A stretch of DNA of 64,000 bases, from contig CBDDDZ010000002.1 in the NCBI GenBank assembly GCA_965226795.1, positions 480,001 to 544,000 on the forward strand, written 5' to 3'. This DNA comes from Candidatus Latescibacterota bacterium. Its GTDB lineage: Bacteria > Latescibacterota > UBA2968 > GCA-2709665. Position numbers: made by a program. Below are positions 3,001 through 6,000 of this stretch, one piece after another. The stretch's first letter is position 1, and each line of letters opens with the position of its first letter.

Positions 3001-6000
3001 TACCGGTTGGCGGGACTCACTGCTTGCGGCCAACCGGTTTTTCTGTCCCGAAACCCGAACCGTGAAAACGCGGCCCGTGAAGTACCGGCAGAAGGGTTCG
3101 GAGGAACCGGAGTTATGACGGAGGCACGGCAGGGCGCAGACTGGAAATGGATGGTGCTGTTTCCGGCGGTTTCGGGCCTTGTCCTGGGCGCGGCATTCCC
3201 ACCCCTGCCCATGGGTTTCCTGTCTTACGTGGCGCTTATCCCGCTGCTGATTTCGGCGGAACGGCTGTGCGGCCGTGCGGCCTTTGGCGCCGGTTTCGTT
3301 CAGGGGATATTTTTCTACGGAGCGACACTTTACTGGATCGGTTGGATCACGCCCCCCGGCATGGCCGGGGCGGTTTTTTACATGTCCCTGTTCCGTGGGC
3401 TGTTTTTGTGGACGTTCGCCCGCGTCGTGCGGCGGTACGGCGCCACGGGCATGTGGAGCGCGCCCTTTCTGTGGGTTGGGTTCGAGTATTTCAATTCTCT
3501 GGGAGACATGGGGTTTCCATGGGTGGTGCTTGGTAATTCGCAGACGGCCTATCTGTGGCTGATCCAGTATGCTGAAGTGACGGGGGTATATGGGGTTTCG
3601 TTCTGGATTGTAGTGGTCAATCTGAGCGTACTGATGCTGTGGAGGAACGGAGCGCGGCGCTGGGCTTGGGCTGCCGCGGTGGCGGCGCTTTTTGCGGGAC
3701 CGGCGGCGAACGGGTATCTGGCGCTGAAGAATGATTCTGATCAGCAGGCCGTGCCGGTGGGTGTAGTCCAACCGGATATGCCTCCGGTGGCCAAGGAATA
3801 CAGGGGATTCGATTACAATTTCGGCAAACTGAAGCCGATGACAGTGGAAGCCGCGGGGCAGGGGGCGAAGCTTGTGGTGTGGCCCGAGACGGCGGTCGGC
3901 TATATGAAAGGGGAACTGTACCGGCACCATCGAGAGCAGGTGCAGGCGATGGTGGACTCGCTGGGCATCTACCTTCATACGGGCGCGTACCGACTGGTGA
4001 CTGGCGACCCGGTAAAGGTGTACAACTCCTCGTTTCTGTTCGTGCCCCAAAAGGGGATCACGGGATACTACGATAAAACTCGCCTGGTGCCGTTCGGCGA
4101 ACGGGCGCCGTTCCCGGATTTGCTGCCCTTTCTGAGGAAAACCCGGTTCACCGGCGGCGGGTACGTGGGGGGCAACTGGGATTCCGGAGAGACGCGGACG
4201 GTTTTCAATGGCCCCGAGGCCCGGTTCTCCGCGCTAATCTGTTACGACTCGGTTTTTCCGGGATTTGTCCGGTCCTTTGTGGACCGGGGCGCGGAGTTTC
4301 TGGTCGTTATTACCAACGATGGCTGGTTCGGTCGCACTTCCGGACCCTATCAGCATGCCGAGGCGGCTGTGTTTCGCGCCATCGAGAACCGGCGGGACGT
4401 GGTGCGCTGCGCGAATACAGGTGTGTCCACGTTTATCGACGCCTTTGGACGGAAGTCGGGGACAACGGGAATTTTCCATCCGGCCGTGTTGACTCACGGC
4501 GTGGTGCCACGAAGCGCAAAGACGTTTTATACGAGGTACGGAGACCTGTTCGCGCAGCTCTGCCTGGTTCTGGGCGCGCTTCTGGTGGTGATGGCCATCC
4601 GCCGGCACACGATGGATGCAACGCCGTCGATTCTGCCCCCGGACGCCGAAACTCCCGGCCGACGCACCCCCGAACCGTCCGAGCGTGGGGACGACAAGGC
4701 GATGCCCTTTCTGGATCATCTGGAGGAACTGCGATGGCGCATATTAAAAGGGTTGGCGGCCCTCGTGTTCGGCGCCGTGATCTGCGGGATATTTTCGGAC
4801 AGCATCCTCGGTTGGCTTGTGTTGCCGGTTCGCGACGTGACCCCCGTAATGGAGTGGTTGGGCGTGGCGCCGGTTGAACCGCCCGTCAAGCTTATATATT
4901 TGAAACCGATGGGGATGTTTCTCGTCAAATTTCAAATTTCCCTGGTGGGCGGCGCGATCCTGGCGTTGCCGTTTCTCCTGTATCAATTGTGGATCTTCGT
5001 TGCTCCGGGTTTATTGAAATCGGAGCGGCGGTACGTATCTTTTATTGTTTTTTCGTCGACGGTCTGTTTTGTTCTGGGCGGCGCCATTGCCTACGTGAGC
5101 GTGGTGCCGCTGTCGTTTCGATTCCTGATTCTGATCGGCGAGGGGACCGGCGTCGACCCCCAGTTCGATATCGGCTACTACATCGGCTTTGTGCTGAGAC
5201 TGCTGGTGGCCTTCGGTGTTGTCTTCGAACTGCCGGTAGCGGCGTTTTTCCTGAGCCGGATCGGCCTGTTGACCGCGGATCGAATGCGGCGCGGCCGGCG
5301 GTATGCGGTAGTGATCGGCTTTATTCTGGCTGCCCTGCTCACGCCTCCGGACCCGATCTCCCAACTCCTGATGGCGCTGCCGCTGGTGCTGCTTTACGAA
5401 TTCAGCATCTGGGTGGCCCGGGTCGCCGGCAGATAAGCCGGGCATTCGGCCGCGGACGTCCGATACGCGACCGCGCGGGAACACTTTGCAGCGGCTGTAT
5501 AAATTGACAAGGGATTGTTTTTTTATGAGTATACCGGTTGCGGTCGGCATTCTGGCGGTGTGTTTCGTGGTTCTTGCCAAGTGCGCTTCGTGGTTTGTGG
5601 ACGGAGCGGTGGGGATTGCCGAATATCTGAATGTTCCGAAGATGCTCATCGGCATCGTGCTGGTGAGCCTGGCGACGACCTCACCCGAACTGGCCGTGTC
5701 CGTTCTGTCCGCACTCGAGGGGCATCCGGAGATGGCGCTGGGCAATGCCGTCGGTTCCGTGATTGTGGACGACGGCGTTGCGCTGCCGCTGGGCGTCCTC
5801 GTGGCAGGGACGCCGATTCTCATCAATCCATATTTGTTACGGACGACCGGGATATTTCTGATCGTCGTGGATTTGGCCGCGTACGCGATGGCGTTTGACG
5901 GGCGCCTGGGGCGCGCCGAGGGAGGGGTACTGCTACTGCTGTTCGTGGCGTACACGGTTTTTGCATATGTGACGCGTCGTCGATCTTCCGAGGCAGAGGG

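What a model noticed while it worked through the whole genome (the two positions that open the first line are those of the whole stretch)
3115..5436. The only TatC of the genome is fused to apolipoprotein N-acyltransferase (Lnt-TatC)
g00404 (773 aa) joins a complete apolipoprotein N-acyltransferase (LNT_N 20-170, CN_hydrolase 216-446; aligns with Lnt of Chlorobaculum over 17-498) to a complete TatC (534-756) in one polypeptide. No other TatC is encoded; TatA is separate (g03476). Both parents have cytoplasmic N and C termini (recalled topology: Lnt 8 TM, TatC 6 TM), so the fusion is topologically possible. It is fixed in the order UBA2968 and recurs in Gemmatimonadota, which suggests a physical coupling of Tat export with the last step of lipoprotein maturation.
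Evidence so far: Pfam rows and Swiss-Prot match; TatC and LNT_N occur only in g00404, TatA_B_E only in g03476. Six-frame search of the phylum with the whole protein: one stop-free match covering at least residues 46-770 in 50 of the 52 other genomes of the order (the other two, G059 and G067, have it in pieces) and in 12 genomes of one genus (g25) of the sister family; in the remaining families the Lnt part (to ~495) and the TatC part match separately. Search with residues 480-773 among proteins of 425-1353 aa: 589 hits at E<=1e-20; nearly all of the best 120 carry PF20154+PF00795+PF00902 (Lnt+TatC); sources name them only 'apolipoprotein N-acyltransferase', from Latescibacteria and Gemmatimonadetes. 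No pape [...]
(Added by a program. Inside this text positions count along the whole contig: contig position 480,001 is position 1 of the stretch shown here. "Call 12" and the like, gene names such as g00115 and contig names such as C1 are that model's own, and its searches are not shown. The text may have been shortened before it was handed on; [...] marks where a part breaks off. The agent that wrote the report below was given it as the finding of a first reader that could run no searches.)

Follow-up and report, generated by a model that had tools for sequence, protein, structure and literature searches.

The report
Lipoprotein acyltransferase fused to TatC
One gene here encodes a lipoprotein-acylating enzyme (Lnt) joined head-to-tail to TatC, the receptor of the folded-protein export system; the join is real and arose several times from neighbouring genes, but nothing yet shows that the two activities work together.

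Summary
Window 3115-5436 (+) is one stop-free ORF of 773 aa. It has a complete Lnt (residues 1-499), a 30-residue disordered linker, and a complete TatC (530-773). It holds the only TatC and the only LNT_N in this 5.4-Mb genome.

Both halves keep their key residues in 110 of 110 fused homologues.

- **Order:** all 52 other genomes are consistent with fusion.
- **Sister family f4:**
- **New here:** across the class, lnt sits directly upstream of tatC even where the genes are separate. They are then in another frame or split by one in-frame stop.
- **Outside the class:** the two genes are unlinked.
- **Tree:** at least 4 fused/unfused changes.
- **"Gemmatimonadota" recurrence:** the four Gemmatimonad-labelled items I could place lie in the window's own phylum, so this looks like a label artefact. 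True Gemmatimonadota were not searched.

Best reading: a bifunctional protein made by read-through of an adjacent gene pair. Functional Tat-Lnt coupling is unproven. The genome has few Tat signals (5), 2 of them with a lipobox, and most lipoprotein candidates are Sec-type. My own idea of an internal TatC start was rejected. No paper on the fusion was found.

The parts
2942..2969 (+). sigma-70-like promoter match (TTGACA, 16 nt, TATATT) in the divergent intergenic region upstream of the gene
   Evidence: 11 of 12 hexamer positions match. 3 sites were found in 2700-5700, against 1.0 expected in shuffles. This is a consensus match only.
3115..5436 (+). lnt-tatC fusion ORF (773 codons plus stop)
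   Evidence: One search gives the stop-free translation. Searches give the domains; contigs from RNA libraries bridge the junction in 3 of 4 runs, with no indel in the ORF.
3115..3729 (+). Lnt membrane part, residues 1-205 (seven predicted helices; LNT_N 20-170)
   Evidence: LNT_N. AF2 helices at 10-27, 34-50, 53-77, 80-127, 158-177 and 179-205, with pLDDT mostly above 90.
3760..4452 (+). nitrilase-like (CN_hydrolase) domain, residues 216-446, holding E258 (3886-3888), K321 (4075-4077) and C376 (4240-4242)
   Evidence: in the alignment to E. coli Lnt 5xhq, E267, K335 and C387 fall on E258, K321 and C376. All three are invariant in 110 of 110 fused proteins.
4546..4611 (+). last Lnt helix (TM8, residues 478-499), followed by RRH
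   Evidence: helix 478-499; the alignment with E. coli Lnt runs to residue 496.
4612..4701 (+). linker, residues 500-529; Pro- and acid-rich, disordered
   Evidence: pLDDT is below 50 for 499-528; in 30 homologues the linker length varies several-fold and the sequence is not conserved.
4702..5433 (+). TatC, residues 530-773, starting with the invariant motif MPFLDHLEELRW
   Evidence: full-length Pfam TatC; residues 530-772 align with Aquifex aeolicus TatC (4b4a) residues 1-231. E538, E637 and E705 fall on Aquifex E9, E96 and E165.

Best explanation
The gene makes one membrane protein of about 14 helices that carries two separate activities.

- **N-terminal part:** apolipoprotein N-acyltransferase, with seven helices, a periplasmic nitrilase-like domain and an eighth helix that returns to the cytoplasm.
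- **Linker:** about 30 residues, disordered, cytoplasmic.
- **C-terminal part:** an ordinary six-helix TatC, tied by the linker to the cytoplasmic N terminus it would normally have free. With the single TatA it forms a minimal TatAC translocase.

**How it arose (inferred).** In the ancestor of this class of Latescibacterota, lnt came to lie directly upstream of tatC on the same strand. Loss of the lnt stop codon, or of the frame offset, then fused the two. This happened at least three to four times. It could happen because the C terminus of Lnt and the N terminus of TatC are both cytoplasmic.

**How it works (inferred).** Each half works as it does when free. The fusion mainly fixes 1:1 co-production and co-location. 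Once TatC's own start signals decay, the fused state is hard to undo.

**Shown:** the anatomy, residue conservation, distribution, gene adjacency and repeated origin.
**Inferred:** that both halves are active, and that the covalent link is not needed for either activity.
For: **Anatomy.**
- The ORF and its domains are complete.
- The Lnt residues that align with E. coli E267, K335, E343 and C387 are invariant in 110 of 110 fused proteins. So are E637 and E705, which align with Aquifex TatC E96 and E165. E538, which aligns with E9, is at least 90% conserved.
- AF2 model: pLDDT 84.3. Both halves are confident and the linker 499-528 is below 50.

**TatC must be functional.**
- It is the only TatC in the genome.
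- Classic Tat clients are encoded with RR signals: PhoX, a molybdo-oxidoreductase and a Rieske protein.

**Lnt has a pathway to act in.** Lgt (two copies) and LspA are present elsewhere.

**Origin from a gene pair.**
- In family f4, 30 of 38 listed unfused genomes have tatC just downstream of lnt (coordinates).
- Junctions show either another frame or one in-frame stop right after TM8.
- 7 of 21 sampled unfused adjacent junctions are in frame, which is the chance rate.
- Outside the class, 0 of 16 genomes with both coordinates have the genes adjacent.
- 54 TatC loci from other phyla have no Lnt within the 1.5-kb flanks.

**Repeated origin.**
- The tree needs at least 4 fused/unfused changes. 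Each fused clade sits beside unfused kin, with support of 100.
- The linkers of the four fused clades look unrelated by eye.

**Precedent.** Mycobacterial Ppm1 is Lnt fused to Ppm synthase. The same two genes are separate neighbours in M. smegmatis and C. glutamicum, and deleting the Lnt domain left Ppm activity intact (PMC3850990, passages read).
Against: - No experiment shows that either half is active, or that the 85-kDa product stays intact.
- Keeping lnt next to tatC through a whole class, plus four independent fusions and no observed reversion in 52 order genomes, could equally mean selection for a joint function.
- 2 of the 5 Tat-signal hits over the cut-off have a lipobox-like Cys: a DctP-type binding protein and a heparinase II/III-like protein. 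So Tat-exported Lnt clients probably exist.
- The direction of change (gain or loss) is inferred from outgroups on a quick tree with some unresolved forks.
- The Tat-signal and lipoprotein counts are crude six-frame scans of my own, not calibrated predictors.
Confidence: 0.68

Rival explanations
1. **Functional coupling.** The tether places Lnt at the Tat translocon. Tat-exported lipoproteins would then be N-acylated where they emerge, or Lnt would modulate TatC.
For: - Rosetta-stone logic applies: the gene pair is adjacent across the class and fused at least 4 times.
- 2 of the 5 Tat-signal hits over the cut-off carry a lipobox-like Cys.
- Tat-dependent lipoproteins are known in other organisms. 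This is recalled knowledge; the listing includes a Streptomyces paper that uses the term.
- The Lnt-Ppm precedent joins two steps that act on the same lipoproteins.
Against: - Lnt acts last, after Lgt and LspA have removed the signal peptide that TatC binds. Those two enzymes are encoded elsewhere.
- Of 126 loose (47 strict) lipoprotein-like N termini, only 5 have an RR pair. Most Lnt clients would therefore come through Sec.
- The linker is disordered, several-fold variable in length and unconserved.
- Sister lineages do without the link.
Confidence: 0.15
2. **Separate products from one ORF.** TatC would be made on its own from the invariant Met530, or released by cleavage in the linker. The fusion would then exist mainly on paper.
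For: - M530 is invariant in 110 of 110 fused proteins and aligns with Met1 of Aquifex TatC.
- In some unfused relatives (g28) no other start codon lies between the lnt stop and this Met.
- In one RNA-library run the contigs break at 4686/4693, just before the ATG at 4702. Contigs cannot show RNA ends.
- Only about 39% of crude gene starts in this genome have a Shine-Dalgarno core, so lacking one does not exclude a start.
Against: - A Shine-Dalgarno core 3-11 nt upstream is present at only 5 of 47 distinct fused junctions. The background is 8.2% at 10,011 deep internal ATGs, and 39% at first starts.
- In many free-standing TatCs of other phyla the same MPFLDHLEELRW motif lies 8-150 residues inside the protein, after an upstream start. 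The Met is therefore conserved as a motif residue.
- No promoter-like site lies just upstream of 4702.
- Contigs of 3 of 4 RNA-library runs bridge the junction.
Confidence: 0.12
3. **Artefact.** An assembly or sequencing error would have removed a stop codon or frameshift between two ordinary genes.
For: None was found. The only supporting fact is that relatives one stop codon away from fusion exist.
Against: - The same stop-free frame occurs in 50 of 52 other order genomes, many of them single-contig assemblies. The remaining two are also consistent with fusion.
- It occurs in 32 f4 genomes.
- 112 of the best 120 database proteins show it.
- Strain-variant contigs of four public runs show it, with no indel in the ORF.
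Confidence: 0.01
4. **One half is a relic.** One half would have lost its activity, for example with Lnt serving only as a membrane anchor, and would persist because it is attached to the essential other half.
For: The family f4 genome checked for it (G116 = G172) has a second Lnt-like match at 31% identity, so redundancy could exist in that family.
Against: - The window's genome has a single LNT_N and a single TatC.
- All key residues of both halves are conserved in 110 fused proteins (E538 at 90% or more, the rest invariant).
- Both halves exceed NCBIfam equivalog cut-offs.
Confidence: 0.03

Closest known systems
Apolipoprotein N-acyltransferase Lnt (E. coli and P. aeruginosa structures 5N6H, 5XHQ, 6NWR and others)
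   Same: - Residues 21-497 align with E. coli Lnt residues 24-509 (E 3e-31).
- It has LNT_N plus CN_hydrolase.
- The Glu-Lys-Cys triad positions are kept.
- It has seven helices, then the periplasmic domain, then a last helix.
   Different: - The C terminus continues into a linker and a whole TatC.
- E. coli W237 aligns with a non-Trp residue in this protein.
TatC (Aquifex aeolicus 4B4A/4HTS; recent TatC entries 9DZZ and 9E02)
   Same: - Residues 530-772 align with the whole Aquifex TatC, 1-231 (E 1e-37).
- It has six helices.
- Aquifex E9, E96 and E165 align with conserved Glu residues.
- A single TatA partner is encoded elsewhere.
   Different: - The N terminus is not free. It is tied to a 500-residue membrane enzyme.
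- No second TatA/B-family gene was found.
Mycobacterial Ppm1 (Rv2051c / BCG_2070c): Lnt domain fused to polyprenol-monophosphomannose synthase
   Same: - Lnt is the N-terminal partner of a natural fusion.
- The same two genes are separate neighbours in related species (MSMEG_3859/3860; C. glutamicum ppm1/ppm2).
- The domains act independently: deleting the Lnt domain left Ppm activity (PMC3850990, passages read).
   Different: - The partner is a glycosyl-carrier synthase, not a translocase subunit.
- The lineage is Actinobacteria.
Haloarchaeal TatC topology variants (TatCt with 14 helices, TatCx with 10, TatCn with a long cytoplasmic N terminus)
   Same: - They show that TatC tolerates added helices and long N-terminal cytoplasmic extensions (PMC6525301, abstract and passages read).
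- TatCs of KSB1- and Calditrichota-labelled MAGs seen here also carry disordered N-terminal tails of 100-150 residues.
   Different: - TatCt is TatC fused to a second TatC.
- None of these variants carries an enzyme of another pathway.

Membership tests
Apolipoprotein N-acyltransferase (Lnt) | LNT_N membrane domain plus CN_hydrolase domain, scoring above curated cut-offs | tested here: met
   PF20154 at 106.8 bits (cut-off 27.1) and PF00795 at 100.3 bits (cut-off 23.2). TIGR00546 equivalog at 326 bits (cut-off 132.9).
Apolipoprotein N-acyltransferase (Lnt) | Catalytic Glu-Lys-Cys triad (E. coli E267, K335, C387; roles recalled from the literature) | tested here: met
   counting along the alignment to 5xhq puts E258, K321 and C376 on these positions. 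All three are invariant in 110 of 110 fused proteins.
Apolipoprotein N-acyltransferase (Lnt) | Eight-helix topology with the nitrilase domain between helices 7 and 8 and both termini cytoplasmic | tested here: met
   the AF2 model has the helix pattern 10-205, the domain at 213-475 and a helix at 478-499. Which side each end faces is inferred from the solved homologues (recalled) and from RRH after the last helix.
Apolipoprotein N-acyltransferase (Lnt) | N-acylation of diacylglyceryl-Cys lipoproteins | not testable with these tools
   This needs an enzyme assay or complementation. Lgt (two copies) and LspA are present in the genome.
TatC | Full-length match to the TatC family models above cut-off | tested here: met
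   PF00902 covers 1-208 of 208 positions at 228 bits (cut-off 25.1). TIGR00945 at 201.9 bits (cut-off 132.7).
TatC | Six helices and the conserved Glu residues of the signal-binding and concave faces (Aquifex E9, E96, E165; roles partly recalled, partly from PMC6525301) | tested here: met
   E538, E637 and E705 align with them. E637 and E705 are invariant and E538 is at least 90% conserved in 110 proteins; helices at 532-559, 598-629, 638-675, 686-703, 728-742 and 747-772.
TatC | Works with a TatA-family partner on substrates that carry twin-arginine signals | tested here: inconclusive
   One TatA_B_E gene is present. Five TIGR01409 hits pass the cut-off, among them PhoX and a molybdoenzyme, and a Rieske protein carries an RR motif. 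Transport itself was not tested.
Obligate two-activity complex (functional Rosetta-stone pair) | The halves contact each other or depend on the covalent link | tested here: inconclusive
   Unfused sister lineages exist. The linker is disordered. pTM of the whole model is 0.68. No contact evidence was obtained.

The most novel reading that the evidence does not exclude
lnt sits next to tatC across a whole class, and the two fused at least four separate times. That pattern could mark a real working unit: a Tat translocon with a built-in lipoprotein-finishing enzyme. Folded, cofactor-bearing or oligomeric lipoproteins exported by Tat, such as the DctP-type binding protein and the heparinase-like protein found here, would be triacylated at the exit site before release to the Lol pathway. 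If so, this would be the first natural case of a protein-export receptor covalently joined to a substrate-modifying enzyme. It would also be a ready-made handle for mapping where the N terminus of TatC sits in the active complex.
Probability: 0.12. Interest if true: 0.8.

Novelty: new variant of a known kind. Interest (0 to 1): 0.5.

Why it matters
**For Tat research.**
- If the protein stays intact, nature has shown that TatC can work as the sole receptor of a cell while carrying a 500-residue, eight-helix enzyme on its N terminus.
- That limits how TatC protomers can pack in the receptor complex.
- It offers a natural fusion partner for structural work.

**For lipoprotein biology.**
- This is a second independent case, after mycobacterial Lnt-Ppm, of Lnt being fused at its C terminus to its downstream neighbour.
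- It raises the testable question of whether Tat-exported lipoproteins get special handling.

**For annotation.**
- Sources name these proteins only "apolipoprotein N-acyltransferase".
- Pipelines may therefore score these genomes as lacking TatC.

**For gene-fusion evolution.**
- The locus gives four independent fusion events, with unfused neighbours and one-stop-away forms among close relatives.
- That makes it a clean natural series for studying how gene fusions arise and become locked in.

Tried and rejected
1. **Internal translation start at Met530 (my own idea).** Rejected as the main reading.
   - A Shine-Dalgarno core is present at 5 of 47 fused junctions. The rate is 8.2% at internal ATGs and 39% at first starts.
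   - The Met lies inside many free-standing TatCs of other phyla that start further upstream.
   - No promoter-like site lies upstream of 4702.
2. **Complex prediction, Lnt 1-500 against TatC 528-773, each with a 110-row alignment.** No verdict, score 0.00 in two runs. This is evidence neither for nor against contact.
3. **Long open frames upstream of TatC in L118, L078 and L081 (336-452 aa).** I looked at them as possible other TatC fusions. The translations look like non-coding Arg/Pro/Gly-rich read-through with no Lnt match. Not pursued.
4. **Test of true Gemmatimonadota through the phylum of G169.** That phylum holds only 10 genomes, all unfused. It is evidently not Gemmatimonadota proper, which remains unsearched.
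5. **Loose RR-motif regex for Tat substrates.** It gave 170 hits, mostly noise. Only the HMM-backed hits and a few clear cases were used.
6. **In-frame stop forms as programmed read-through.** 7 of 21 sampled unfused adjacent junctions are in frame, which is the chance expectation. Nothing points to recoding.
7. **X1 RNA-library contig break at 4686/4693.** Seen in one run only. Contigs cannot show RNA ends, and three other runs bridge the place.
8. **Earlier findings of this scan.** Nothing near this place.
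Full report
**1. What is in the sequence**

Window 3115-5436 (+) translates without a stop into 773 residues. 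The stop-to-stop frame reaches back to a TTG at 3007. Homologues begin to align near the ATG at 3115, and GGAGG and GGAG lie just upstream of it.

- Pfam finds LNT_N at 20-170, CN_hydrolase at 216-446 and a full-length TatC at 534-756, covering 1-208 of 208 profile positions.
- NCBIfam's equivalog models for lnt and tatC both score far above their cut-offs: 326 against 133 bits, and 202 against 133 bits.
- Against solved structures, residues 21-497 align with E. coli Lnt. Residues 530-772 align with the entire Aquifex aeolicus TatC, with Met530 on its Met1.
- An AlphaFold2 model built on 110 fused homologues has mean pLDDT 84.3 and pTM 0.68. It shows six helical segments between 10 and 205 (one of them, 80-127, long enough for two membrane passes), a beta-rich domain at 213-475, and a helix at 478-499. 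A stretch at 499-528 has pLDDT below 50. Six TatC helices follow.

Established knowledge of the solved homologues (recalled) says the Lnt C terminus and the TatC N terminus are both cytoplasmic.

**2. Is it the only copy, and is it likely to be active?**

Six-frame family searches of the window's own genome (5.41 Mb, 95.9% complete) find one TatC, one LNT_N and one TatA/B-family gene on another contig. Two Lgt genes and one LspA gene lie elsewhere.

Residue conservation:
- Counting along the alignment with E. coli Lnt (5xhq), E267, K335, E343 and C387 fall on E258, K321, E329 and C376.
- Aquifex TatC E9, E96 and E165 fall on E538, E637 and E705.
- All of these are invariant in 110 of 110 fused proteins, except E538, which is at least 90% conserved.
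- The functional roles of these residues are recalled from the literature. PMC6525301 (passages read) names Aquifex Glu165 and Glu96 as critical.

The genome encodes classic Tat clients with twin-arginine signals. Five TIGR01409 hits pass the cut-off:
- a PhoX phosphatase;
- a sulfite-oxidase-type molybdoenzyme;
- an NMT1-type binding protein;
- a DctP-type binding protein;
- a 1015-residue heparinase II/III-like protein.

A Rieske protein also carries an RR motif. With no other TatC present, the fused TatC has to be the working one.

**3. Surroundings**

- The gene is divergent from a class I/II aminotransferase gene at 1673-2857 (-).
- It is followed after 49 bases by a Na/Ca-exchanger-family gene, then by dTDP-sugar genes.
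- A near-consensus sigma-70-like site lies at 2942-2969. None lies just upstream of the TatC part.
- No tatA is nearby.
- Contigs assembled from metatranscriptome libraries of two studies cover the gene at 99% identity or more. They bridge the Lnt-TatC junction in 3 of 4 runs laid, with no indel in the ORF.
- Contigs cannot show RNA ends or levels, and DNA can be present in such libraries. This is therefore only weak support for expression as one transcript.

**4. Distribution**

Among proteins of 425-1353 aa, 727 match the TatC part at E of 1e-10 or lower. Of the best 120:
- 112 carry LNT_N + CN_hydrolase + TatC;
- 5 carry CN_hydrolase + TatC (shorter proteins);
- 3 carry TatC alone.

Sources name these proteins only "apolipoprotein N-acyltransferase" or "hypothetical protein".

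I searched all 168 genomes of the phylum twice, once with the whole protein and once with the TatC part alone, reading the length of the open frame around each match.

| Group | Genomes | Result |
|---|---|---|
| Order (f1 + f2) | 52 others | TatC in a frame of 713 aa or more in 51; G059 is cut by contig ends. All consistent with fusion, and one TatC match each. |
| f3 | 3 | 3 of 3 unfused (frames 265-283 aa). Two have tatC directly downstream of lnt in another frame. |
| f4 | 73 with a TatC match | 32 fused: 24 of genus g25 plus one contig-end fragment, 2 of 2 of g30, 5 of g31. 38 listed as unfused. 3 not among the listed rows. |
| f5-f14 | 16 with both coordinates listed | 0 of 16 have the genes adjacent. 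|

A periplasmic-loop insertion splits the whole-protein match in many of these genomes.

Of the 38 unfused f4 genomes, comparing coordinates between searches gives:
- 30 with tatC immediately downstream of lnt;
- 5 with the genes further apart or on other contigs (G099, G102, G103, G104, G106);
- 3 without listed Lnt coordinates. For one of these, G092, the fetched 2.6 kb upstream holds no Lnt.

Of 79 loci fetched from the species-representative collection:
- 24 hold Lnt and TatC together;
- 1 holds Lnt alone;
- 54 hold TatC with no Lnt within the 1.5-kb flanks.

The 54 TatC-only loci are titled KSB1, Calditrichota, Zixibacteria, Marinimicrobia, Ignavibacteria and others.

**5. The "Gemmatimonadota" recurrence**

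This looks like a matter of labels.
- Records titled "Gemmatimonadota bacterium RHO1_bin_28", "Gemmatimonadetes bacterium RS822" and "uncultured Gemmatimonas sp." map to the same contig coordinates as G048 (the window's own genus), G116 (f4 g25) and G039 (f3).
- The "Gemmatimonadaceae" protein P0116 sits in alignment A1 beside P0119. P0119's contig length equals that of G164 contig C1 (f4 g31).
- Two further Gemmatimonadota-labelled genomes have the two genes on different contigs. Their GTDB phylum holds only 10 genomes, all unfused.
- The protein atlas holds one cluster with this architecture: 53 members, with Candidatus Latescibacterota the commonest taxon.

I could not search true Gemmatimonadota, so absence there is not shown.

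**6. How the fusion arose**

Junction sequences show a graded series among class relatives:
- lnt and tatC in different frames;
- the same frame with a single TGA or TAG directly after the last Lnt helix (G116, G120, G121, G131, G100, G149, G153);
- fully fused.

Of 21 sampled unfused adjacent junctions, 7 are in frame. That is the chance expectation, so nothing suggests recoding.

A maximum-likelihood tree of 52 concatenated Lnt + TatC rows (IQ-TREE quick search, SH-aLRT support) needs at least 4 changes between fused and unfused states:
- the order clade (support 100), sister to the unfused f3;
- a fused g25 subclade (100), sister to the g25 in-frame-stop subclade;
- a fused g31 subclade (100), sister to an unfused g31 subclade;
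- g30, in an unresolved fork with the unfused g27.

The linkers of the four fused clades differ in length and look unrelated by eye.

With unfused outgroups, the simplest reading is three to four independent fusions of an already adjacent gene pair. The tree is unrooted by itself and some forks are open, so the direction of change is an inference.

**7. How it most likely works**

The evidence fits a bifunctional protein whose halves act as they do when free, tied by a floppy cytoplasmic tether. The tether guarantees equal production and co-location.

Fusion may persist because, once tatC has lost its own start signals, any new stop codon would abolish the only TatC. That would be a ratchet rather than an adaptation.

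The mycobacterial Lnt-Ppm1 fusion is a close precedent:
- Lnt is again N-terminal.
- The same two genes are separate neighbours in M. smegmatis and C. glutamicum.
- Removing the Lnt domain left Ppm activity intact (PMC3850990, passages read).

**8. Rivals**

*(a) Functional coupling of Tat export with N-acylation.*

For it:
- adjacency across the class;
- repeated fusion;
- 2 of the 5 Tat-signal hits carry a lipobox-like Cys (VLAGC in the DctP-type protein, LATGC in the heparinase-like protein).

Against it:
- Lnt acts after Lgt and LspA, when the signal peptide that TatC binds is already gone.
- My crude scan finds 47 (strict) to 126 (loose) lipoprotein-like N termini, of which only 5 have an RR pair.
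- The linker is disordered and unconserved.
- Sister lineages live without the link.

I put this at about 0.15.

*(b) Separate products.*

I raised this myself because Met530 is invariant while the residue before it is not. It fails on three counts:
- There is no Shine-Dalgarno enrichment: 5 of 47 distinct fused junctions, against 8.2% of 10,011 internal ATGs and 39% of 1,296 crude first starts in this genome. The genome's 16S rRNA has the usual anti-SD.
- In many free-standing TatCs of other phyla the same MPFLDHLEELRW motif lies 8-150 residues inside the protein, after an upstream start.
- There is no promoter-like site.

Cleavage cannot be tested here. I put this at about 0.12.

*(c) Artefact.* Excluded by the many independent genomes.

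*(d) A dead half.* Unlikely, given residue conservation and single copy.

**9. Known or new**

Three full-text searches found no paper describing the fusion:
- "Lnt-TatC" anywhere in a word: 0 papers.
- TatC + "apolipoprotein N-acyltransferase" + fusion: 7 papers, none on the fusion judging by title and abstract start.
- TatC / Lnt / Latescibacteria: nothing relevant among the 15 of 44 listed.

Subscription journals are outside that library.

Both parent families are textbook. The architecture is a new variant, so far hidden under the name "apolipoprotein N-acyltransferase".

**10. Verdict**

- Interest is moderate. The case is a clean, repeated natural fusion that constrains TatC architecture and poses a testable question about Tat-lipoproteins.
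- The evidence leans towards a fusion of convenience rather than a new mechanism.

Noticed in passing
window 8000-10200 (and on to about 13300): G+C drops from about 0.60 to 0.44-0.49. The drop covers minus-strand ORFs at 8785-9270, 9267-10196 and 10493-13321 (942 aa). This may be an acquired island.
   Followed up: no
G011-G014, G020, G023 (family f10); proteins P0095, P0099: TatC lies in open frames or proteins of 406-431 aa that carry only the TatC Pfam domain. This is a long TatC form with an unexplained extra 150-180 residues.
   Followed up: no
L084, L090, L094, L103, L125 (KSB1-, Calditrichota- and 'Cytophagia'-labelled MAGs): Free-standing TatCs carry acidic, Pro-rich, low-complexity N-terminal tails of 100-150 residues ahead of the MPFLDHLEELRW motif. 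These tails resemble the fusion linker.
   Followed up: partly
L055, L067, L080; protein P0116: NCBI titles 'Gemmatimonadota', 'Gemmatimonadetes', 'Gemmatimonas sp.' and 'Gemmatimonadaceae' sit on genomes that the scan's taxonomy places in the window's own phylum. One of them is in the same genus.
   Followed up: yes
G116 (=G172) C202:531-2018: This f4 genome has a second Lnt-like match at 31% identity, away from the lnt-tatC locus. Other f4 genomes show extra whole-protein matches that could be the same thing. The window's genome has only one LNT_N.
   Followed up: no
G000 C4:622333-623064 and C5:1916362-1917105: There are two Lgt paralogues, at 233 and 114 bits, in the window's genome.
   Followed up: no
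window 5440 onwards: RNA-library contigs of runs X1 and X2 are a strain variant 99% identical within the gene. They diverge from the window directly after the stop codon (loose ends at 5440). The downstream neighbour therefore differs between strains.
   Followed up: no
G002 C452:3831-4529 and G025 C7:6119-6802: TatC matches lie in open frames of 653 and 553 aa in two genomes outside the class. I did not check whether these are real extensions or just open non-coding frames.
   Followed up: no
G000 C3:310533 (L153) and C5:2674401-2677445, minus strand (L154): Two proteins combine a Tat-type signal with a lipobox-like Cys: a DctP-type solute-binding protein and a 1015-aa heparinase II/III-like protein.
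   Followed up: partly
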